A program made the position numbers and the translations under genes. Below are positions 1,089 through 11,899 of a stretch of 13,574 nucleotides of DNA, piece by piece. Source of the DNA: a virus. Its lineage: Duplodnaviria; Heunggongvirae; Uroviricota; Caudoviricetes. The notes below the pieces were generated by a model. The model was not told the origin of the DNA. It searched no databases and worked only from the letters and a program-made list of their open reading frames with translations. The stretch covers positions 1 through 13,574 of IMG/VR virus record IMGVR_UViG_2684622582_000008; one strand, written 5' to 3'. Position 1 is the first letter of the stretch. Each line of letters begins with the position of its first letter.

Positions 1089-1111
1089 TTTGGCGGAAGA
1101 TCACAGGAGTC
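1089..1111. repeat. attR: displaced copy of the selC 3' end (direct repeat of 11803-11825)
   Basis: tggcggaagatcacaggagtc at 1091-1111 is identical to 11805-11825; the match extends 2 nt upstream (tt). Imperfect similarity continues into the element (caaaattgcc vs cgaacctgcc). Confidence 0.85.
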
Positions 1112-1233: not shown

Positions 1234-1540
1234 ACTCAGGAAAAAAATTTTTTTTCGGAAGAACTGTTCACACTGTTCACCTTTCTGTTTTCTCCTTTTA
1301 TTTCAGTTTGATAGGTGGTGAATAATGGGTGAAGGGTGAACATTCGATTCTTCACCTCCGGCATTCTGCCGGTGTGACTCATACCGGTGATTAATCCTCC
1401 GCACTGAAATCACTCAGGAAGAAAAAAGTTTTTTTGATTTGATTGTTCACACTGTTCACCTTTCGTTTTTCTCTTTTAATTTCAGTGTGATAACGGGTGA
1501 ATATACGGTGAAGGGTGAACAGTGGATTGTTCACCTTCGG
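1234..1540. repeat. crr-like cis replication region: two ~128-bp direct repeats (1234-1361 and 1412-1540), each with several TGTTCACC/GGTGAACA type-I-like iterons
   Basis: The two segments align almost base for base (actcaggaa...ttcacactgttcacctttc...ggtgaagggtgaaca...ttcacc). Octamers such as tgttcaca (1265-1272), tgttcacc (1274-1281) and ggtgaaca (1335-1342) are present. Position directly downstream of alpha matches P4 crr. Confidence 0.75.
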
Positions 1541-1594: not shown

Positions 1595-3928
1595 TCAGGT
1601 TGTTGCAGGGTCGTCACATTTTGGCAGCCAGTCGCCGTAGCTTTCCTCTTTCAGCGTCAGGTTGGTCTGTATCCCCTGTTTGGTATGGCGCTTCTCGTAA
1701 TTCAGCCCGTATTCCTTCAGCATCACCGGCAGCCCCAGCCCGAACATTTTCAGACTGAGTACATTCCGGTAGCCGTTTGCCTCCATGTAGGCCAGATAGG
1801 CGTGATAGAGGTATTTACGGTAATTACGCGGGATGATACTGGCGTTCCCCATATACATGCCGCTGGTCTGCGGCAGGGTTTCCAGATAGCCGATAAAATC
1901 AAACGTCGGGTCGGCATCCCGTTTGATGTTCAGTGCCTCGTCTGAGTTCTGCTGGGACTGAAGCAGTGACCGGGCGAGCATCGGGTCGCTGAATTTCTGC
2001 ATCAGGTGACGCACGATGACCGCCAGCTCGCGGGTGATTTTGTCCTTAAGCTGCGGGTCGCGCTCCTGCGGGGCTATCTGTTCCGGGAAGTGAATAATCA
2101 CCCGCCGGCGTGACACGCCGCCGCTGCGGTCGGTGAAGCGCATCGGGTTATTGTTCACGGCCAGAATCACCGCCGGGATATGCGTGGAGTACGCATCCCG
2201 GTATTTCGGGTCCACGGACACCGCATCGCCGCCGGTGATGGCCTTGAGTCCGGCACCGTCGCCGCTCCATTTTTCCTGGTCCGGCAGGCGTATCAGTGAG
2301 AAGCCAGTTAACGCGGCACGTTCACGCGGGGATTCCAGCGTCTCAATGGTGGCCGATGTGGCGTTATCCTCCCCGGCCAGCAGGGTGGCGATTTCGGCCA
2401 TGATACTTTTGCCGCTGCCGCCGGGACCGGTCACCTCCAGAAAGAGCTGCCAGTCGTAGCGGTTTGCCAGCACCATAAACAGTGCGGCCAGAATCACGTC
2501 GCGTTTTTCCGCACGGCCACCGGCGGCACGGTCAAGCCAGCGCCAGAACGCGGGGGCGTGGTTTTCCAGCGTTTCCCCTTCCACCGGCGGGGTGAAATCC
2601 ACATCGCACAGGGTGCGCATCCAGTGTGACGGACTGTGCAGGTGGAACGTGCCGTTCTGCGTGTCGAGCACGCCGTTACGAAAGCCAATCAGGCGGCGGG
2701 AGGGGGCTTCCTGCTGCGGAATAATCAGCTTCAGGGTGTCCACCACGGAGGCCACCTTCCCGGAGGAGAACGGCGCGCGCAGACGCTGAAACAGCCCGGC
2801 CACATCCCGGGCAAAGTCCTGTGGCGGCAGCATCTTCCAGACACCATTTTCATAGCGGGACAGAAGCTGGCCGTTGGCATCGACCGCGAGCGCCTCGCCG
2901 TAATGCTCATAGATACGCATGGCCTTTTCGCTGGTACTCATGGCGGAAAACTCCGCTTCGCTCATGGTGTCGAACGGGCTTTCAGCCGGTGGCCGGATGG
3001 CATCGTAAATGGCCTTACGGGTGGCCTCCCCGCCGTACTGCGTGAAGGCATCATTCCAGTCACCGAAGACCGGCGGCAGGGCAACAACGCCCTCACACGC
3101 ATCTGCGGCTGCGGCGGCTTTTTTCTGGCCGTCACCGCTGAGGTCACGGTCAGCAGCAAGGACAATCTGACAGGCCGGATGCTTCTGCCGGGCAAGGCTG
3201 GCCAGAGAAAGGAGGTTCACGGAAGAAAGCGCCACCATCACCGTTTCACCGGTCAGGTGATGTACGGTAAGTGCGGTCGCGTATCCCTCCGCTATCCACA
3301 GACGTTTTCCGGCCTGATTCTGTCCTTCAAGGATGTGACAGGTGCCCCTGACCTGTCCGCCTTTCAGGGTGCGCTTACGGCCGTCAGCACTGATTAACTG
3401 AAGGTTAACCAGTTCGCCGCTGTCGTCATACAGTGGCACCACAAGGTCACCGGCACGCCAGCTCACGCCACCGGCTCTGTGTGTGCCGGTCAGCATCCGG
3501 CATTCCCGGCCGGGAAAGCCCTTGCGGGTCAGGTAGGCGTTACCGGTTCCGGGACGGGTTTTCGCCATCAGGGTTTGTGCCAGTGCGGCGGCGTTCTTCC
3601 GGGCAGCGTCTGTTTCAGCAACGGCGGCGGCCGTCACTGCCGGGTCAGCCGGGGGCAGGCTGCCGGTCACGGCAGCCACCTTTGTGGCCGCGTCGGACGG
3701 GGAGACACCAAACACCTTTTCAACCAGTTTCAGGCCGTCACCGGCACCACACTGATTGCAGTACCAGGTGCCGCGCCCCTCCCTGTCATCAAAACGGAAG
3801 CGGTCACTCCCGCCACAGACCGGACAGGGCTGATGACGGTTTTTCAGCACCTGAATCCCCAGCGCCGGGAGGATACGCGGCCAGTGGCCGAGCGCATGGC
3901 TGACGGTGGCGGTTACGTTCATTTTCAT
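1595..3928 (-). CDS. alpha: P4 alpha-type primase-helicase (zinc-binding primase N-terminus, central/C-terminal P-loop helicase), 777 aa
   Basis: ATG at 3928 with GGAG upstream. N-terminal CPVCGG...WYCNQCG zinc-binding motif; Walker A GPGGSGKS; length equals P4 alpha (777 aa); flanked by crr iterons. Confidence 0.85.
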   Translation of the reverse strand: MKMNVTATVSHALGHWPRILPALGIQVLKNRHQPCPVCGGSDRFRFDDREGRGTWYCNQCGAGDGLKLVEKVFGVSPSDAATKVAAVTGSLPPADPAVTAAAVAETDAARKNAAALAQTLMAKTRPGTGNAYLTRKGFPGRECRMLTGTHRAGGVSWRAGDLVVPLYDDSGELVNLQLISADGRKRTLKGGQVRGTCHILEGQNQAGKRLWIAEGYATALTVHHLTGETVMVALSSVNLLSLASLARQKHPACQIVLAADRDLSGDGQKKAAAAADACEGVVALPPVFGDWNDAFTQYGGEATRKAIYDAIRPPAESPFDTMSEAEFSAMSTSEKAMRIYEHYGEALAVDANGQLLSRYENGVWKMLPPQDFARDVAGLFQRLRAPFSSGKVASVVDTLKLIIPQQEAPSRRLIGFRNGVLDTQNGTFHLHSPSHWMRTLCDVDFTPPVEGETLENHAPAFWRWLDRAAGGRAEKRDVILAALFMVLANRYDWQLFLEVTGPGGSGKSIMAEIATLLAGEDNATSATIETLESPRERAALTGFSLIRLPDQEKWSGDGAGLKAITGGDAVSVDPKYRDAYSTHIPAVILAVNNNPMRFTDRSGGVSRRRVIIHFPEQIAPQERDPQLKDKITRELAVIVRHLMQKFSDPMLARSLLQSQQNSDEALNIKRDADPTFDFIGYLETLPQTSGMYMGNASIIPRNYRKYLYHAYLAYMEANGYRNVLSLKMFGLGLPVMLKEYGLNYEKRHTKQGIQTNLTLKEESYGDWLPKCDDPATT

Positions 3929-5355: not shown

Positions 5356-5619
5356 CTATCGCCGGAGTTCCTACGCTCGATGGCGATAGCCCAGACGGGG
5401 GTAGGAATACCGGCCTCGAAGAATACCGGCCAGCCCGGAGGCTGCCCCGCCTGAGCTACCATTGACTCAGTGGCATAACATGCGATTGCGAACAGGATCA
5501 TACCTGCACGGCAAACCACACGCCACACCATAATCTGGCGCTCTGTGGCGTTGATTGCGACACAAAAAAAGACGCATGGCGCGTCATATGTCGCCTTCGA
5601 GTTACACGGGTTCCTACGC
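5356..5619 (-). ncRNA. Candidate P4-type immunity leader (cI-like RNA with seqA/seqB/seqC-like elements)
   Basis: No RBS-supported ORF between the vis stop and 5324. gttcctacgc occurs twice (5367-5376 and 5610-5619); ggggtaggaat at 5397-5407 is near-complementary (8/10) to it. Hairpin ctatcgcc/ggcgatag (5356-5363 and 5382-5389). Order on the leftward transcript (copy, complement, copy) matches the P4 seqA-cI(seqB)-seqC layout. Confidence 0.35.
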
Positions 5620-5648
5620 CCGGCTGCCGATTTTGCGGCAGCGGAAAA

Positions 5649-5678
5649 ACTATATCCGCAAATGCCGGAAAAAGGCAA
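5649..5678 (-). promoter_or_regulatory. Candidate constitutive leftward promoter (PLE-like)
   Basis: On the minus strand: TTGCCT (-35; plus 5673-5678) and TATAGT (-10; plus 5649-5654) with 18-bp spacing, just downstream of vis. Confidence 0.3.
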
Positions 5679-6530: not shown

Positions 6531-7265
6531 ATGTCTGACAACACCATCCCTGAATATCTGCAACCCGCGCTGGCACAACTGGAAAAGGCCAGAGCCGCCC
6601 ATCTTGAGAACGCCCGCCTGATGGATGAGACCGTCACGGCCATTGAACGGGCAGAGCAGGAAAAAAATGCGCTGGCGCAGGCCGACGGAAACGACGCTGA
6701 CGACTGGCGCACGGCCTTTCGTGCAGCCGGTGGTGTCCTGAGCGACGAGCTGAAACAGCGCCACATTGAGCGCGTGGCACGCCGGGAGCTGGTACAGGAA
6801 TATGACAATCTGGCCGTGGTGCTGAATTTCGAACGTGAACGCCTGAAAGGGGGGTGTGACAGCACGGCCACCGCCTACCGGAAGGCACATCATCACCTTC
6901 TGAGTCTGTATGCAGAGCATGAGCTGGAACACGCCCTGAATGAAACCTGTGAGGCGCTTGTCCGGGCAATGCATCTGAGCATTCTGGTACAGGAAAATCC
7001 GCTCGCCAACACCACCGGCCATCAGGGCTACGTCGCACCGGAAAAGGCTGTCATGCAGCAGGTGAAATCATCGCTGGAACAGAAAATTAAACAGATGCAA
7101 ATCAGCCTCACCGGCGAGCCGGTTCTCCGGCTGACCGGACTGTCAGCGGCAACACTCCCGCACATGGATTATGAGGTGGCAGGCACACCGGCACAGCGCA
7201 AGGTGTGGCAGGACAAAATAGACCAGCAGGGAGCAGAGCTTAAGGCCAGAGGACTGCTGTCATGA
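6531..7265 (+). CDS. sid: Sid-like capsid size-determination (external scaffold) protein, 244 aa
   Basis: ATG at 6531 with GAGGAG 8 nt upstream (the ORF-track GTG at 6513 has no RBS). Length equals P4 Sid; first gene of the sid-delta-psu operon. Confidence 0.8.
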   Translation: MSDNTIPEYLQPALAQLEKARAAHLENARLMDETVTAIERAEQEKNALAQADGNDADDWRTAFRAAGGVLSDELKQRHIERVARRELVQEYDNLAVVLNFERERLKGGCDSTATAYRKAHHHLLSLYAEHELEHALNETCEALVRAMHLSILVQENPLANTTGHQGYVAPEKAVMQQVKSSLEQKIKQMQISLTGEPVLRLTGLSAATLPHMDYEVAGTPAQRKVWQDKIDQQGAELKARGLLS

Positions 7266-7762
7266 TTTACTGCCCGTCGTGTGGACATGTTGCTCACACC
7301 CGTCGCGCACATTTCATGGACGATGGCACCAAGATAATGATTGCACAGTGCCGGAATATTTATTGCTCTGCGACATTTGAAGCGAGTGAAAGCTTTTTCT
7401 CTGACAGTAAAGATTCAGGAATGGAATACATTTCAGGCAAACAGAGATACCGCGATTCACTGACGTCAGCCTCCGGCAGTATGAAACGCCCGAAAAGAAT
7501 GCTTGTTACCGGATATTGTTGTCGGAGATGTAAAGGCCTTGCACTGTCAAGAACATCGCGGCGTCTGTCTCAGGAAGTCACCGAGCGTTTTTATGTGTGC
7601 ACGGATCCGGGCTGTGGTCTGGTGTTTAAAACGCTTCAGACCATCAACCGTTTCATTGTCCGCCCGGTCACGCCGGACGAACTGGCAGAAAGCCTGCATG
7701 AAAAACAGGAACTGCCGCCAGTACGCTTAAAAACACAATCATATTCGCTGCGTCTGGAATGA
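7262..7762 (+). CDS. delta: Delta-like late transcriptional activator (tandem Ogr-type zinc-finger domains), 166 aa
   Basis: ATG overlaps the sid stop (ATGA). CPSCGH...C..C and a second C..CC..C...C..C cysteine cluster are consistent with duplicated Ogr-like zinc fingers. Length equals P4 Delta. Confidence 0.8.
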   Translation: MIYCPSCGHVAHTRRAHFMDDGTKIMIAQCRNIYCSATFEASESFFSDSKDSGMEYISGKQRYRDSLTSASGSMKRPKRMLVTGYCCRRCKGLALSRTSRRLSQEVTERFYVCTDPGCGLVFKTLQTINRFIVRPVTPDELAESLHEKQELPPVRLKTQSYSLRLE

Positions 7763-7835: not shown

Positions 7836-8408
7836 ATGGAAAGCACAGCCTTACAGCAGGCCTTTGACACCTGTCAGAATAACAAAGCAGCATGGCTGCA
7901 ACGCAAAAATGAGCTGGCAGCGGCCGAACAGGAATATCTGCGGCTTCTGTCAGGAGAAGGCAGAAACGTCAGTCGCCTGGACGAATTACGCAATATTATC
8001 GAAGTCAGAAAATGGCAGGTGAATCAGGCCGCTGGTCGTTATATTCGTTCGCATGAAGCCGTTCAGCACATCAGCATCCGCGACCGGCTGAATGATTTTA
8101 TGCAGCAGCACGGCACAGCACTGGCGGCGGCACTGGCACCGGAGCTGATGGGCTACAGTGAGCTGACGGCCATTGCCCGAAACTGTGCCATACAGCGTGC
8201 CACAGATGCCCTGCGTGAAGCCCTCCTGTCCTGGCTTGCGAAGGGGGAAAAAATTAATTATTCCGCACAGGATAGCGACATTTTAACGACCATCGGATTC
8301 AGGCCTGACGCGGCTTCGGTGGATGACAGCCGTGAAAAATTCACCCCTGCGCAGAACATGATTTTTTCGCGTAAAAGTGCGCAACTGGCATCACGTCAGT
8401 CTGTGTAA
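7836..8408 (+). CDS. psu: Psu-like polarity suppression protein (Rho antagonist / capsid decoration), 190 aa
   Basis: Third gene of the late operon; length equals P4 Psu; N-terminus MESTALQQAFDTCQNN matches my recollection of P4 Psu. Confidence 0.8.
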   Translation: MESTALQQAFDTCQNNKAAWLQRKNELAAAEQEYLRLLSGEGRNVSRLDELRNIIEVRKWQVNQAAGRYIRSHEAVQHISIRDRLNDFMQQHGTALAAALAPELMGYSELTAIARNCAIQRATDALREALLSWLAKGEKINYSAQDSDILTTIGFRPDAASVDDSREKFTPAQNMIFSRKSAQLASRQSV

Positions 8409-8444
8409 AATTCCCCGAAAATCCGCCTGTTTTTACTGAAAAAA

Positions 8445-8483
8445 GCCATGCATCGATAAGGTGCATGGCTTTGCATGCGTTTT
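8445..8483 (+). terminator. Candidate terminator after psu
   Basis: Stem gccatgca/tgcatggc (8445-8452 and 8462-8469) followed by a T-rich tract tttgcatgcgtttt. Confidence 0.4.
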
Positions 8484-8572
8484 CCTGCCTCATTTTCTGC
8501 AGACCGCGCCATTCCCGGCGCGGCCTGAGCGTGTCAGTGAAACTGCATTAAAACCGCCCCGCAAAGCGGGCG

Positions 8573-8591
8573 GGCGAGGCGGGGAAAGCAC
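8573..8591. other. cos-like cohesive-end site (P2/P4-type 19-mer)
   Basis: ggcgaggcggggaaagcac matches the P2/P4 cohesive-end sequence as I recall it; it lies between psu and the cargo gene, as in P4. Confidence 0.65.
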
Positions 8592-8620
8592 TGCGCGCAT
8601 GTATGCAGGAAATAACCTGA

Positions 8621-8666
8621 CTCTCCAGCCAGAGAAAGAAACTGAACTGGAGAGTTTTTTGTTTTT
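8621..8666. terminator. Stem-loop with flanking T/A tracts between cos and the cargo gene
   Basis: ctctccag (8621-8628) pairs with ctggagag (8647-8654), followed by ttttttgttttt (8655-8666). It sits about 25 nt past the stop of the minus-strand cargo gene. Confidence 0.35.
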
Positions 8667-8678
8667 ACATGGATGTGT

Positions 8679-10439
8679 TCAGTTTTTATTTATGAATGAA
8701 ATACTGTTCTCTAGTGACTCCTTTACTTTTTTCACGGTGTTTTTTAACTCAATAATGGCTCCGCGACGAAAAGAAATTGAAAGTTCATTCAGGTAAGAAT
8801 TTAAGAACTCATCTAGTTTTTTTAGATGAGGTAGCTCGTTAGATAGATAATCGCGAAGGTTAGAAAAGTTGTATACAGATAATAGATGGTCTGAAAACAT
8901 TTGAATATCGTAAATGGACCAATTATGTTGTATGGCACTTATGATTAAATTTACATCTAAAGTTTCCAGTGCTTTAAACTTGAAATCTGAATGATATATA
9001 TCCATATCGATAGTGGTCCAACCATCGTTAACCATCTTGTTTTTTAATTCTTCTATTCTTTCTCTTTTTGTTATGTTAATATATTTGTCAACAAAAAAGT
9101 TATATAAATTATCTCCATCATGTTTTAGCATATTTAGTGGGATGTCATTGATGTTTGGCACGGTTTTATGAAAATATGATTTTATTTCATCGTCACTGAA
9201 GCTAAGTTTGCTTTGATTAATGGTGTCTTCATCTAGGGTGTTTATATGAGGTATATATTCATATTTTGAGAGTCTAATATAGTTATTCGTGGCAATTAAC
9301 CATGTAGATAGATCTGGAGAATTTGATTTTAAAATTGTTTTTATTATTTCTTCCTGATAGTCATGTTCAGATATGTTATATAACTCAGGTCTTAATAATC
9401 CAGCATAATCATTTCTCTTGGGAGGGGTATTGTCAGTAAAAACATATGGAAGAATGTCTTTATGCGAAATTGCATTAAAACAATATGGAGCCATTTTATT
9501 ATTATAGTTTTTGTATGCACTAATACTTAATAAATTGTTTTCTTCTTCACTTATTTCATTGTGTTCGTTTTCTGGTGTGGTTGAAATTGTTTTGAGTGAT
9601 GATGAAACAAAATTTTCACGAAACTCATTTTCCTTATAGTTGAATTTTTCCTTAAGTATTATATGTGCACACAATGAGCTTACTAAATTTTTAATATCTA
9701 TATCAGAGATATCTCTGTCTTGCGTTGTTTGTTCAAACAACGGTAGGAGTTTTACAATGACTCTATTAATGATTCGGATATTTGTTTCTTCGAAATCTAT
9801 AATTACTTGCTTAATGATGTCTCTATAATTTTCTTGTATTTTCTCAAGCTTTTTATCTAAAATGTCAGAAAGATTGTTTATAGAAAAGTATACCTCGTCG
9901 CTAATAACTTTTTCTTTATGATTCAATACCTCATTGCTTTGTTTTGAAAAATTACCAACTAAAATATAGTCTAACATCTTGTTATTTTGATAATTTTGTA
10001 AGCAAAAGGTTGCTATTTCATCTCGCAAATTTTGAGGTATACGTTCTAGATCATCAATAATAAAAACTCCTGAAAGATCTTTTAATACATAATGTTGCAT
10101 TGCCCCTGCAAATGTTGATATTATTTTTCCAGTAAACTTCCCAGTGCTTTCTTCTTTAGTAATAGCTGTGGTTACATTTGATGCTAACTCTGTAATTATT
10201 TCTATATCGGGTGGATTCTCTAAATAAGTTACACTCAACACCTTGTCTTTAAAATCTTGCAAACTATTTAATCCAAGCACAGATATATAAAATTGAGTTT
10301 TGTTGGAATAATATTGCTTAAATTCATTTTGAAGGAAGAATGTTTTACCAACCCCCCACTCACCGTTTAACAAAATTAGACCTTCACGTTTTTCATTTAG
10401 TAATCTAATTAAAACAGATATTATTGTGTTTTTATCCAT
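8679..10439 (-). CDS. KAP-family-like P-loop NTPase with large uncharacterised C-terminal region, 586 aa; candidate anti-phage defence cargo in the P4 hotspot
   Basis: ATG at 10439 with AAGGAG upstream. Walker A GEWGVGKT (GxWGxGKT type) and Walker B VFIIDDLER (hhhhDDL[DE]R type) in the first ~135 aa. Very AT-rich compared with the P4 backbone. Occupies the gop/beta/cII position between cos and int. Confidence 0.7.
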   Translation of the reverse strand: MDKNTIISVLIRLLNEKREGLILLNGEWGVGKTFFLQNEFKQYYSNKTQFYISVLGLNSLQDFKDKVLSVTYLENPPDIEIITELASNVTTAITKEESTGKFTGKIISTFAGAMQHYVLKDLSGVFIIDDLERIPQNLRDEIATFCLQNYQNNKMLDYILVGNFSKQSNEVLNHKEKVISDEVYFSINNLSDILDKKLEKIQENYRDIIKQVIIDFEETNIRIINRVIVKLLPLFEQTTQDRDISDIDIKNLVSSLCAHIILKEKFNYKENEFRENFVSSSLKTISTTPENEHNEISEEENNLLSISAYKNYNNKMAPYCFNAISHKDILPYVFTDNTPPKRNDYAGLLRPELYNISEHDYQEEIIKTILKSNSPDLSTWLIATNNYIRLSKYEYIPHINTLDEDTINQSKLSFSDDEIKSYFHKTVPNINDIPLNMLKHDGDNLYNFFVDKYINITKRERIEELKNKMVNDGWTTIDMDIYHSDFKFKALETLDVNLIISAIQHNWSIYDIQMFSDHLLSVYNFSNLRDYLSNELPHLKKLDEFLNSYLNELSISFRRGAIIELKNTVKKVKESLENSISFINKN

Positions 10440-10469
10440 AAAATACTCCTTTTAGTAATTATAATTAAC

Positions 10470-11642
10470 TCAATCTGCTGGATAAATAAAGTCACTATAC
10501 CATTGTAACATCTTTAATCTTTTCTCTAAATATTGAGCATGATTATATGTTCCCCTAATGCTATTTTTATCAACATGAGCTAGTTGCATTTCAATCCATG
10601 CACTATCAAAACCTTGTTCATGTAGTATTGTCGACATTGTATGTCTAAACCCGTGGCCTGTTGCACGTCCCTTATAACCAAGTAATTCGATCACTTGTGA
10701 TATACTTTCTTTAGAAATTGGTTTAGTACGATTATTACGTCCAATAAATATATAAGGATAATGGCTAGAGATGGGTTTTAATTGATTAAATAGGGTAATC
10801 ACTTGAGATGATAAAGGTACAAGGTGAGGCCGACGCATTTTCATGCGTTCTGCTGGTATTTCCCATATTCCTTTTTCTAAATTGACTTCTTCCCATGTGG
10901 CAAAACGCAGCTCTTGTGTTCTTACTCCGGTAAGCATCACAATCTTGGTTGCATTTTTAGTGATTATGCTGCCAGTGTAAGCCTCCAGATCTTTGACAAA
11001 ATAAGGGAGTTCTTCTGCTGATAGAAAAGGATGATGTTTTTGCTTCGGTACAGCTAATGCGATAGCTAAATCAGGTGCTGGATTGTATTCAGCACGGCCA
11101 GTGATGATCGCGTAGCGAAACACCTCTCCGCATCGTTGACGTACTTTTCTGGTTTTCTCCAACGCTCCACGTTTTTCTATGCGTTTAAGTACTTCAAGCA
11201 GTTCTAGGGGTTTAATTTCAGCTATTGGCCGTTTACCAATGAAAGGAAAAACATCCTGTTCAAATGTTTTAATAATTTCTTCGCGATAAGCTAGAGTCCA
11301 ACGATCTGCTTTTGCTGCGTGCCATTCTCTGCTAACTGCCTCAAAAGAGGTTTCAATTGATAATTTCTGAGCAATTTTCTGAGCCTTACGTTCTTCTACT
11401 GGATCAATGCCGTTTGCAACCTGTTTACGTGCCGTATCGCGTTTCTCACGTGCTTCTGCGAGGCTTACTAAATCATAGCTGCCAAATGACATTAACCGCG
11501 CTTTCCCAGCAAATCTGAAACGGAAACGCCAGCCTTTCGAGCCATCTGGATTGATAAGCAACGACAGACCTTGTCCATCGTTCAATGTGTATGGCTTGTC
11601 TTGTGGTTTTGCACGTTTGATCTGTATATCGGTTAGAGCCAT
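10470..11642 (-). CDS. int: Tyrosine site-specific integrase (P4/CP4-57-like family), 390 aa
   Basis: N-terminus MALTDIQIKRAKPQDKPYTL...WRFRFRF is typical of P4-family integrases. C-terminal catalytic region GHGFRHT...LAHVDKNSIRGTYNH. Lies adjacent to tRNA-Sec. AT-rich. Weak RBS. Confidence 0.85.
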   Translation of the reverse strand: MALTDIQIKRAKPQDKPYTLNDGQGLSLLINPDGSKGWRFRFRFAGKARLMSFGSYDLVSLAEAREKRDTARKQVANGIDPVEERKAQKIAQKLSIETSFEAVSREWHAAKADRWTLAYREEIIKTFEQDVFPFIGKRPIAEIKPLELLEVLKRIEKRGALEKTRKVRQRCGEVFRYAIITGRAEYNPAPDLAIALAVPKQKHHPFLSAEELPYFVKDLEAYTGSIITKNATKIVMLTGVRTQELRFATWEEVNLEKGIWEIPAERMKMRRPHLVPLSSQVITLFNQLKPISSHYPYIFIGRNNRTKPISKESISQVIELLGYKGRATGHGFRHTMSTILHEQGFDSAWIEMQLAHVDKNSIRGTYNHAQYLEKRLKMLQWYSDFIYPAD

Positions 11643-11804
11643 GTGTATAACTGAAAACTACGTATAAAAAATCTATACACATTACTATACATATTTTTCG
11701 CGGATTCAGGGAGATGAACTCGGACTATTACGGATAAGATGATTATTCATCGTATTGAATACAAAGGGTTTTATGGAGCGTCTCGGAACTGGCTGGATGA
11801 AGTT

Positions 11805-11899
11805 TGGCGGAAGATCACAGGAGTCGAACCTGCCCGGGACCGCTGGCGGCCCCAACTGGATTTGAAGTCCAGCCGCCTCACCGGAGACGACGATCTTCC
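11805..11899 (-). tRNA. selC: tRNA-Sec (selenocysteine tRNA), intact; its 3' end forms attL
   Basis: The reverse complement of 11805-11899 reads GGAAGATCGTCGTCTCCGGTGAGGCGGCTGGACTTCAAATCCAGTTGGGGCCGCCAGCGGTCCCGGGCAGGTTCGACTCCTGTGATCTTCCGCCA, matching E. coli selC as recalled, including the long variable arm and CCA end. Confidence 0.9.

What the first reader, a model, noticed from the sequence alone, without database searches (positions are those of the whole stretch)
8679..10439. Single AT-rich KAP-like NTPase gene in the P4 defence hotspot
In P4-type satellites the segment between cos/psu and int is a recognised variable hotspot that carries anti-phage systems in place of gop-beta-cII. Here it holds one 586-aa ORF. 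Its N-terminus has KAP-type Walker A (GEWGVGKT) and Walker B (VFIIDDLER) motifs. The remaining ~400 aa are N/K/D/E-rich with no nuclease, transmembrane or other effector motif I can recognise by eye. The gene is far more AT-rich than the backbone, consistent with recent foreign acquisition. I cannot match it to a named defence family, so it is a candidate single-gene abortive-infection or defence protein.
Basis: partly seen in the sequence, partly recalled or inferred. Interest (0 to 1): 0.85.

Follow-up and report, generated by a model that had tools for sequence, protein, structure and literature searches.

The report
Known P4-satellite anti-phage NTPase (Reve family)
The AT-rich gene between psu and int of this E. 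coli P4-like satellite is real and intact, but it is already catalogued: a close allele was recently named "Reve" and shown to block T1-like phages, although how it works is still unknown.

Summary
There is one intact 586-aa ORF at 8679-10439 on the minus strand. Its GC is 0.29 against 0.49-0.61 for the backbone genes. It has Walker A GEWGVGKT and Walker B FIIDDLER, no TM segment and no recognisable effector domain. It is the only plausible gene between cos and int of a P4-like satellite integrated at tRNA-Sec.

The defence interpretation is supported, but the gene is not new. The identical protein (WP_000360276) is listed in Rousset et al. 2022 among P4 hotspot loci. That paper files the family as system #11, "AAA_22/NB-ARC, NLR-like", with 110 loci. 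A 63%-identical allele ("NOD-1") showed no activity on their 8-phage panel. A 2026 preprint tested an ~86%-identical allele ("UnknownSys7", evidently pFD425 = "Reve"). It reduced plating of all seven Drexlerviridae tested by 10^2 to 10^5.6-fold.

The most likely mechanism, which is inferred, is a nucleotide-gated sensor switch. The effector step is unknown.

The parts
8679..10439 (-). Complete coding sequence (586 aa plus stop) of the Reve-family single-gene defence NTPase, identical to WP_000360276
   Evidence: ORF and translation. Identical to the EC19 protein WP_000360276. 49 homologue clusters of about 587 aa. dN/dS 0.1-0.2.
9870..10439 (-). Residues 1-190: P-loop NTPase core with a five-stranded sheet. 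A poorly modelled, variable helical insert at residues 75-117 lies between strand 2 and Walker B
10341..10364 (-). Walker A motif G26-E-W-G-V-G-K-T33
   Evidence: The same GxWGxGKT signature is the only stretch aligned with PifA of plasmid F.
10041..10067 (-). Walker B V125-FIIDDLER-133. D129, D130 and R133 are invariant and E132 is nearly invariant
9609..9869 (-). Residues 191-277: helical lid-like domain with invariant N220-x-R222 (sensor-2-like) and a nearly invariant C257-A-H259
9549..9608 (-). Residues 278-297: disordered, most variable linker
   Evidence: pLDDT below 50 for residues 278-293. Highest column entropy, 1.53.
8682..9548 (-). Residues 298-586: family-specific all-alpha C-terminal domain, the putative sensor or interaction domain
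10440..10530 (-). Upstream region: SD AAAGGAG (10446-10452) and a promoter-like site TTTAGA-17-TGnTACAAT (10502-10530) inside the 3' end of int
   Evidence: The promoter match is not above chance (12 sites found against 13.6 expected). The region lies within the 160-nt upstream segment included in the published Reve construct, and the aligned stretch is 93% identical to the window.
8621..8666 (.). Hairpin CTCTCCAG...CTGGAGAG followed by TTTTTTGTTTTT on the + strand, immediately 3' of the ORF. Probable terminator separating the cargo gene from cos and psu
   Evidence: Sequence read directly. The scan reports a minus-strand terminator-like site at 8633-8616.
8573..8591 (+). cos core GGCGAGGCGGGGAAAGCAC. 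Similarity to the P4 reference ends a few bases later (after GCGCGC, about 8598), which marks the left edge of the variable cargo
   Evidence: Compared with the P4 NC_001609 sequence printed in Rousset Table S2A. That this 19-mer is the cohesive end is from my own knowledge.
10470..11642 (-). P4-type tyrosine integrase, directly upstream of and co-oriented with the cargo gene
   Evidence: Pfam Arm-DNA-bind_3, Phage_int_M and Phage_integrase.
7836..8408 (+). psu, the conserved left flank of the hotspot
   Evidence: Pfam Psu 1.3e-88.

Best explanation
The ORF is the cargo gene of the psu-cos-int defence hotspot of a P4-like satellite. It is an allele of the single-gene anti-phage system recently named Reve (Rousset system #11, 'NOD-1'). 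Family membership rests on sequence identity and locus, and the defence role on the published phenotype of a close allele.

The proposed mechanism below is inferred, not shown.
1. The protein is made constitutively from signals in the 3' end of int.
2. It rests as an inactive, nucleotide-bound switch.
3. Its variable, acidic, all-alpha C-terminal domain recognises a component made by T1-like (Drexlerviridae) phages.
4. Recognition drives nucleotide-dependent activation or oligomerisation of the KAP/STAND-like NTPase, using invariant K32, D129/D130, R133, K177, N220 and R222.
5. This stops phage production.

No catalytic effector domain or conserved catalytic constellation exists outside the NTPase. 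The executing step is therefore most likely non-enzymatic. It could be capture or remodelling of the phage target, or PifA-like toxicity. A separate nuclease, NADase or pore domain is unlikely.
For: Identity and locus: the window protein equals WP_000360276, which Rousset Table S1A lists as a P4 hotspot locus. The family representative of system #11 is the ATCC 8739 allele, 63% identical.

Defence phenotype: 'Syst.19_UnknownSys7' translates to a protein 91% identical to the window protein over the 281 aa visible, and it differs from P0003 at one residue. pFD425 gave EOP 2.5e-6 (Bas01), about 3e-6 (Bas11), 3e-5 (Bas09), 3e-4 (Bas12), 2-4e-3 (Bas13), 3e-3 to 2.5e-2 (Bas02, Bas04) and about 1e-2 on Bas58. 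It had no consistent (both-replicate) effect on lambda, Bas18/20/24, T5, P1, T4 or T7.

Functional gene: dN/dS is 0.10-0.21 in every domain, and length is conserved across Enterobacterales.

Self-contained: the gene occupies the same int-gene-psu/delta slot, alone, in Serratia and Mangrovibacter. Relatives at about 30% identity are stand-alone genes in tailed prophages and on a plasmid.

Switch rather than enzyme: the family-wide invariant residues are all in the NTPase and lid, and the C-terminal domain keeps only aromatic core residues plus E535. The C-terminal domain has no fold match and is the more variable half.

Precedent: KAP NTPases fused to unknown C-terminal regions defend as single proteins, and a Walker B DD to AA mutation abolishes their activity (PMC12632615).
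Against: The window allele itself has not been tested. It is only 81% identical to the P0003 allele in the C-terminal domain, so its specificity may differ.

The 63% allele NOD-1, expressed from its native promoter, showed no activity on eight phages. The Reve phenotype was obtained with aTc-induced pTet expression, so protection at native expression is unproven.

The link UnknownSys7 = pFD425 = Reve is by ordinal position and matching domain description. The header is lost in the extracted File S3.

No trigger, oligomer or toxicity data exist. The best structural neighbours are DNA-loading AAA+ proteins rather than STAND sensors.
Confidence: 0.8

Rival explanations
1. The protein is a DNA-engaging AAA+ protein like ORC/Cdc6, TnsC or MuB. 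It would assemble with ATP on phage DNA (ends, origin or replication intermediates of T1-like phages) and block replication or packaging directly, with no protein trigger.
Confidence: 0.12
2. The published phenotype is an over-expression effect. At native levels the gene does not protect the host, and its real role is something else for the satellite, such as interference with or exploitation of helper phages, or an addiction function.
For: Reve was assayed under aTc-induced pTet. NOD-1 expressed from its native promoter was negative. Bas01 and Bas11 are also reduced to the detection limit by two unrelated constructs, pFD423 and pFD424, so these phages are easily inhibited.
Against: pFD421, pFD422 and pFD426 do not reduce Bas01 strongly in the same assay, so the effect is not generic. 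Rousset's eight-phage panel appears to have held no Drexlerviridae: the family name does not occur in the paper's main text, although the full phage list was not read. That would explain the negative NOD-1 result. The gene sits in a slot that otherwise carries RM, Gabija, Kiwa, PARIS and retron systems. Relatives lie in prophage accessory regions and on plasmids, away from any P4 biology.
Confidence: 0.06
3. The ORF is a decaying or non-functional hitch-hiker in the hotspot.
For: Foreign base composition. KAP genes are said to decay often; this is from my own knowledge of Aravind et al. 2004.
Against: The reading frame is intact with the same length across about 50 clusters and several genera. 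dN/dS is 0.1-0.2. The catalytic residues are invariant. A close allele is active.
Confidence: 0.02

Closest known systems
Reve (single-gene P4 hotspot system, bioRxiv 10.64898/2026.02.27.708500; construct 'UnknownSys7', pFD425)
   Same: Same locus, same 586-aa length and same Pfam signature (PF13401 plus PF07693). It is 91% identical over the 281 aa of the construct that could be read. The construct differs by one residue from P0003, which is 86% identical to the window protein over its full length.
   Different: It is a different allele. The C-terminal domain is only 81% identical, the window gene starts with ATG where the construct has GTG, and the window allele is untested. No mechanism is described for Reve.
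Rousset et al. 2022 P4 hotspot system #11 'AAA_22/NB-ARC, NLR-like protein' (tested as 'NOD-1', pFR82, from E. coli ATCC 8739)
   Same: Same family and same slot. The window protein's own accession, WP_000360276, is in their Table S1A.
   Different: The tested representative is 63% identical. It is listed among the 'additional tested systems', not the validated ones. The panel was eight phages, and the paper's main text never mentions Drexlerviridae.
KAP-family P-loop NTPase defence proteins (PifA of plasmid F; EF_KAP and relatives, PMC12632615; Tmn)
   Same: Single polypeptide with an N-terminal P-loop NTPase followed by about 300 aa of unassignable C-terminal sequence. It shares the GxWGxGKT Walker A with PifA and has a DD-type Walker B. 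All 30 family members hit Pfam KAP_NTPase at E <= 0.01.
   Different: There are no TM helices, whereas EF_KAP has two N-terminal TM helices and Tmn has TM helices after Walker A. The KAP profile is matched over only 121 of 293 positions. The profile-sequence alignment with PifA covers only 29 residues.
Bacterial STAND/NLR-like sensors (Avs, bNACHT)
   Different: There is no N-terminal effector, since the NTPase starts at residue 1. There are no TPR, LRR or WD40 repeats. NACHT and NB-ARC are below threshold for this protein. At 586 aa it is much smaller than the ~2000-residue SeAvs3 chain matched.
PADLOC candidate PDC-S49
   Same: It is the only PADLOC hit, at E 2.2e-12. Residues 22-299 align with profile positions 27-312 of 624, which is the NTPase plus lid.
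   Different: The C-terminal halves do not align. PDC-S49 is an unvalidated candidate, and no paper in the library mentions it.
AAA+ initiator/loader proteins (TnsC, Cdc6/Orc1, ORC subunits, MuB)
   Different: Sequence identity is 7-15%. Walker B is DD rather than DE. The protein is acidic. There is no DNA-binding domain and the C-terminal domain is unrelated.

Membership tests
Reve / Rousset P4 hotspot system #11 | Single gene occupying the psu-cos-int slot of a P4-like satellite | tested here: met
   The same arrangement occurs in Serratia and Mangrovibacter.
Reve / Rousset P4 hotspot system #11 | Full-length sequence homology to the published representatives | tested here: met
   Identical to WP_000360276 of Table S1A. 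63% identical to the system #11 representative. 91% identical over the readable 281 aa of UnknownSys7.
Reve / Rousset P4 hotspot system #11 | Domain signature AAA (PF13401) plus KAP P-loop (PF07693) | tested here: met
Reve / Rousset P4 hotspot system #11 | Protection against Drexlerviridae | not testable with these tools
   Published only for the ~86% allele, under pTet induction.
KAP family P-loop NTPases | Match to Pfam KAP_NTPase above the gathering score | tested here: inconclusive
   Score is 22.1 bits against a cut-off of 20, but only profile positions 3-121 of 293 are matched. AAA_22 scores higher, at 30.9 bits. All 30 relatives match at E <= 0.01.
KAP family P-loop NTPases | Transmembrane helices inserted in or attached to the NTPase domain | tested here: not met
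   The best 19-residue hydropathy mean is 1.18. Residues 75-117, between strand 2 and Walker B, form a soluble, poorly modelled helical insert.
KAP family P-loop NTPases | Trp-containing Walker A (GxWGxGKT/S) and DDLxR Walker B | tested here: met
   GEWGVGKT and DDLER. PifA has GAWGSGKT at the aligned position. That DDLDR is typical of KAP proteins is from my own knowledge.
STAND / NLR-like (Avs, bNACHT) | Tripartite architecture: N-terminal effector, central NOD, C-terminal repeat sensor | tested here: not met
   Walker A starts at residue 26 and no N-terminal domain exists. The C-terminal domain is a non-repeat all-alpha domain with no TPR, LRR or WD40 hits.
STAND / NLR-like (Avs, bNACHT) | NACHT or NB-ARC profile match | tested here: not met
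   NACHT scores E 0.053 and 13.8 bits against a cut-off of 26.7. Only 4 of 30 relatives match at E <= 0.01. Rousset's HHpred-based label 'NB-ARC' could not be reproduced with these tools.
AAA+ initiator/loader clade (ORC/Cdc6/TnsC) | AAA+ alpha/beta core plus lid fold | tested here: met
AAA+ initiator/loader clade (ORC/Cdc6/TnsC) | hhhhDE Walker B and DNA-binding elements | tested here: not met
   Walker B is IIDD. The protein is acidic throughout. No DNA-binding domain was found.

The most novel reading that the evidence does not exclude
Reve-family proteins may be a compact, soluble, TM-less offshoot of KAP/STAND NTPases that defend without any enzymatic effector. On this reading the NTPase and a previously unseen all-alpha domain together capture or remodel a conserved component of T1-like phages in a nucleotide-dependent way. 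The same module also circulates as a stand-alone gene next to umuDC-like genes in tailed prophages. If so, it would be a tractable model for the old, unsolved question of how effector-less KAP proteins such as PifA exclude phages.
Probability: 0.3. Interest if true: 0.6.

Novelty: already known. Interest (0 to 1): 0.3.

Why it matters
As a discovery it adds little. The gene, its locus and its likely role are in the literature, from the 2022 catalogue to the 2026 naming and phenotype.

What remains open is the mechanism. The family keeps a strictly conserved NTPase site but has no recognisable effector, and its 290-aa C-terminal domain has no structural relative. Natural alleles at 86%, 63% and about 30% identity sit in the same or analogous mobile-element slots. 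They offer a ready-made panel for mapping specificity against Drexlerviridae. They could also show how KAP-like NTPases without effector domains stop phages.

Tried and rejected
Searches that found nothing useful:
- NCBIfam gave only a sub-threshold Hda hit on the P-loop.
- A profile search of PDB sequences gave nothing, best E 0.3.
- The literature search for PDC-S49 and the main-text search for protein accessions found no papers. The accessions appeared only in supplementary tables.
- The Foldseek afdb50 library was not available, so I could not ask whether the C-terminal domain recurs in other architectures.
- BFVD gave nothing at E <= 1e-3, so a phage-protein mimic is not supported.
- hhalign against PifA aligned only the Walker A region.

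Ideas considered and rejected:
- Domain-specific positive selection in the C-terminal domain. dN/dS is 0.11-0.20 there, similar to the NTPase.
- A second gene in the hotspot. The 111-aa GTG ORF at 8461-8796, and the 61-aa 'hypothetical protein' annotated in some genomes, overlap the conserved cos region or lie antisense to the gene.
- A membrane effector. There is no hydrophobic segment.

The promoter scan is not above chance, so the promoter assignment is tentative.
Full report
OBSERVATION. The ORF exists exactly as described. It spans 8679-10439 on the minus strand, starts with ATG and encodes 586 aa. It has a strong Shine-Dalgarno sequence (AAAGGAG, 10446-10452). It begins 30 nt after the stop codon of the co-oriented integrase gene. 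Its GC content is 0.291, against 0.611 (alpha), 0.531 (psu), 0.489 (delta), 0.493 (yicJ) and 0.402 (int). Walker A (G26-EWGVGKT-33) and Walker B (F126-IIDDLER-133) are present. No 19-residue window exceeds a Kyte-Doolittle mean of 1.18, so there is no transmembrane segment. Pfam, NCBIfam and PADLOC report nothing beyond the N-terminal P-loop region.

CONTEXT. The window is a P4-like satellite.
- It carries alpha primase-helicase (1595-3928), DUF5375, an Ash-family gene, delta (7262-7762), psu (7836-8408) and a P4-type integrase (10470-11642).
- The C4/CI immunity RNA and its targets lie at 5379-5655.
- The element is integrated at tRNA-Sec (11805-11899), next to yicJ, as in E. coli EC19 and ATCC 8739.
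- It is bounded by an exact 23-nt repeat of the tRNA 3' end at 1089-1111 and 11803-11825.
- The cos core GGCGAGGCGGGGAAAGCAC is at 8573-8591. Similarity to the P4 reference printed in Rousset's Table S2A stops a few bases later.

The target ORF is therefore the sole plausible gene of the variable segment between cos and int. Other ORFs in 8409-8678 overlap the conserved cos region and are not credible.

ANATOMY. An AlphaFold2 model built on 30 homologues has mean pLDDT 79.5 and pTM 0.45. It shows four parts.
- Residues 1-190 form a five-stranded P-loop core. A poorly predicted, variable helical insert at 75-117 lies between strand 2 and Walker B.
- Residues 191-277 form a helical lid-like domain.
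- Residues 278-297 form a disordered linker.
- Residues 298-586 form an all-alpha region.

Pfam gives AAA_22 (E 3.7e-7) and a partial KAP_NTPase match. The KAP score is 22.1 bits against a threshold of 20, over profile positions 3-121 of 293. NACHT is sub-threshold. All 30 relatives hit both AAA_22 and KAP_NTPase. The NTPase therefore sits at the AAA+/STAND/KAP border. It shares the Trp-containing Walker A with PifA of plasmid F, but nothing else aligns with PifA.

FAMILY.
- The word-indexed search found 49 clusters of about 587 aa. They come from Escherichia, Serratia, Yersinia, Klebsiella, Pectobacterium, Hafnia, Citrobacter, Kosakonia, Shimwellia and Mangrovibacter, at 53-100% identity.
- In complete E. 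coli genomes, 26 of 5426 carry a full-length copy in the same slot, in nucleotide-identity classes of about 99.6%, 91% and 75%.
- In Serratia and Mangrovibacter the gene again lies alone, directly after int and before psu or delta.
- A profile search of 1.84 billion representatives found 90 clusters at E < 1e-30. Nearly all are 565-615 aa and matched end to end, and they include Enterobacter, Shewanella and Leptospira proteins.
- A ~30%-identical subfamily is a stand-alone gene convergent with umuDC-like genes. It lies at the end of tailed prophages next to tail-fibre genes, and also on an Enterobacter plasmid.

Across 45 relatives down to 17% identity, the invariant residues are W28, G29, G31, K32, S53, D129, D130, R133, K177, N220 and R222. 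Nearly invariant are G26, T33, G56, F63, E132, N163 and E176, and in the C-terminal domain only W380, W507, F515, Y523 and E535. dN/dS against four homologues is 0.10-0.21 overall and similar in each domain. The C-terminal half is more variable than the NTPase core. The gene is therefore under purifying selection and its nucleotide site is intact. Nothing in the C-terminal domain looks catalytic.

WHAT IS ALREADY KNOWN.
- The window protein is identical to WP_000360276. Table S1A of Rouset et al. 2022 (PMC9122126) lists that accession as an 'AAA_22' P4 hotspot locus.
The representative is the ATCC 8739 protein, which is 63% identical to ours.
- That allele was cloned with its native promoter as pFR82 'NOD-1'. 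It appears in Table S2B, 'additional tested systems', not among the validated ones.
- Their panel held eight phages, and the word Drexlerviridae does not occur in the paper.
- The Domainator paper recovers the same cluster, with 19 loci labelled 'NRL-like protein'.

A March 2026 preprint (bioRxiv 10.64898/2026.02.27.708500) tested eight P4 hotspots of unknown function against 28 phages under aTc-induced pTet. [quoted passage not shown] Its Dataset E1 contains 'Syst.19_UnknownSys7'. The readable 281 codons of that fragment differ at one position from P0003, the 86% allele, and are 91% identical to the window protein. The upstream 160 nt also align with the window.

In File S3 the entry between Toga (Unknown 6, pFD424) and Hailong (Unknown 8, pFD426) lists PF13401, PF07693 and a Foldseek top hit to the human ORC motor module. 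I therefore take Unknown 7 = pFD425 = Reve. This step is an inference from order and content, because the header is missing in the extracted text.

File S4 gives these EOP values for pFD425:

| Phage | EOP |
|---|---|
| Bas01 | 2.5e-6 |
| Bas11 | about 3e-6 |
| Bas09 | 3e-5 |
| Bas12 | 3e-4 |
| Bas13 | 2-4e-3 |
| Bas02, Bas04 | 3e-3 to 2.5e-2 |
| Bas58 | about 1e-2 |

There was no consistent effect on lambda, other siphoviruses, T5-like phages, P1, T4 or T7. A separate preprint (PMC12632615) shows that KAP NTPases fused to unassignable C-terminal regions act as single-protein defences that depend on Walker B.

HOW IT MOST LIKELY WORKS. Some steps are shown and others are inferred.

Shown:
- The gene is a conserved, selected, self-contained hotspot cargo.
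- A close allele restricts T1-like phages.
- The nucleotide-binding and hydrolysis residues are invariant.
- No second catalytic domain can be found.

Inferred:
- The protein is a nucleotide-gated switch.
- Its variable C-terminal alpha domain recognises a Drexlerviridae-specific component.
- Activation or oligomerisation of the NTPase then blocks infection.
- The executing step is non-enzymatic. It could be capture or remodelling of the target, or PifA-like host toxicity.

I put about 0.8 on 'Reve-family defence NTPase' and about 0.4 on this particular mechanism. The main rival, at about 0.12, is an ORC/TnsC/MuB-like ATP-dependent assembly on phage DNA. The fold ranking favours it, while the acidic charge, the DD Walker B and the absence of DNA-binding elements argue against it. 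An over-expression artefact, or a different native role, is possible at about 0.06. The induced promoter and the negative NOD-1 test support it. The phage-specific pattern and the lack of effect of other constructs on the same phages argue against it. A pseudogene is excluded for practical purposes.

COMPARISON AND NOVELTY.
- Reve / system #11: membership is met on locus, full-length homology and domain signature. The phenotype of this allele is untested.
- KAP: membership is only partial. The motifs and a threshold-level partial profile hit are met, but the TM insertion is not.
- STAND/NLR-like: membership is not met, because there is no effector, no repeats and no NACHT or NB-ARC hit above threshold. 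The NTPase fold nonetheless resembles these proteins.
- AAA+ initiator/loader clade: the similarity is in fold only.

What remains open is the mechanism, the nature of the C-terminal domain and the phage trigger.

DEAD ENDS. NCBIfam, the PDB sequence search, the PDC-S49 literature search and the main-text accession search all returned nothing useful. afdb50 was unavailable. BFVD gave no match. The PifA profile alignment covered only Walker A. Domain-specific positive selection was not found. The promoter scan was not above chance.

Noticed in passing
window 1089-1111 and 11803-11825 (wider repeat 1082-1120 / 11796-11834): An exact 23-nt direct repeat, TTTGGCGGAAGATCACAGGAGTC, matches the 3' end of tRNA-Sec. 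It marks the two att sites and gives a satellite of about 10.7 kb. The annotated start of the RhuM-family ORF (ATG at 1122) lies inside or over this repeat. Its first ~28 codons are therefore probably not real, and rhuM lies outside the satellite. It may be a remnant of another selC island, as in Salmonella SPI-3 (that comparison is from my own knowledge).
   Followed up: partly
window 1243-1361 and 1422-1540: Two 119-nt direct repeats are 80% identical with start-to-start spacing of 179 nt. They lie between the att site and the 3' end of the alpha gene. The layout matches the P4 cis replication region (crr), described as two ~120-bp repeats 60 bp apart (from my own knowledge).
   Followed up: no
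window 5379-5466, 5565-5642, 5603-5655 (minus strand): Rfam finds the C4 antisense RNA (the P4 CI immunity RNA class), isrK and the a1/b1 target elements. All are above gathering score and lie inside or next to the Ash/epsilon-region ORF. The satellite's RNA-based immunity module therefore looks intact.
   Followed up: no
L014:2963-6564, L017:2801-6357, L018:5986-9035: The ~30%-identical subfamily of the same 581-aa architecture is repeatedly found tail-to-tail with a umuD-like S24 peptidase plus Y-family polymerase pair. This occurs at the end of tailed prophages, just beyond tail-fibre genes, and on an Enterobacter plasmid. It is either a recurring accessory-gene neighbourhood or a functional link, and which of these it is remains unexplained.
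   Followed up: partly
window 10251-11000: The 3' third of the integrase gene is as AT-rich as the cargo gene (GC 0.30-0.36, against 0.41-0.43 further upstream). This suggests the exchanged module extends into int, so the recombination boundary would lie inside the integrase coding sequence.
   Followed up: no
window 8621-8666: An 8-bp-stem hairpin is followed by TTTTTTGTTTTT on the + strand. It sits between cos and the 3' end of the cargo gene, inside the variable segment. It could terminate transcription from both directions, and it travels with this cargo.
   Followed up: no
File S4 of bioRxiv 10.64898/2026.02.27.708500: Phages Bas01 and Bas11 are reduced to the same detection-limit values by three unrelated constructs (pFD423, pFD424, pFD425). 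These two phages seem unusually easy to inhibit, so they are weak evidence for specificity on their own.
   Followed up: no
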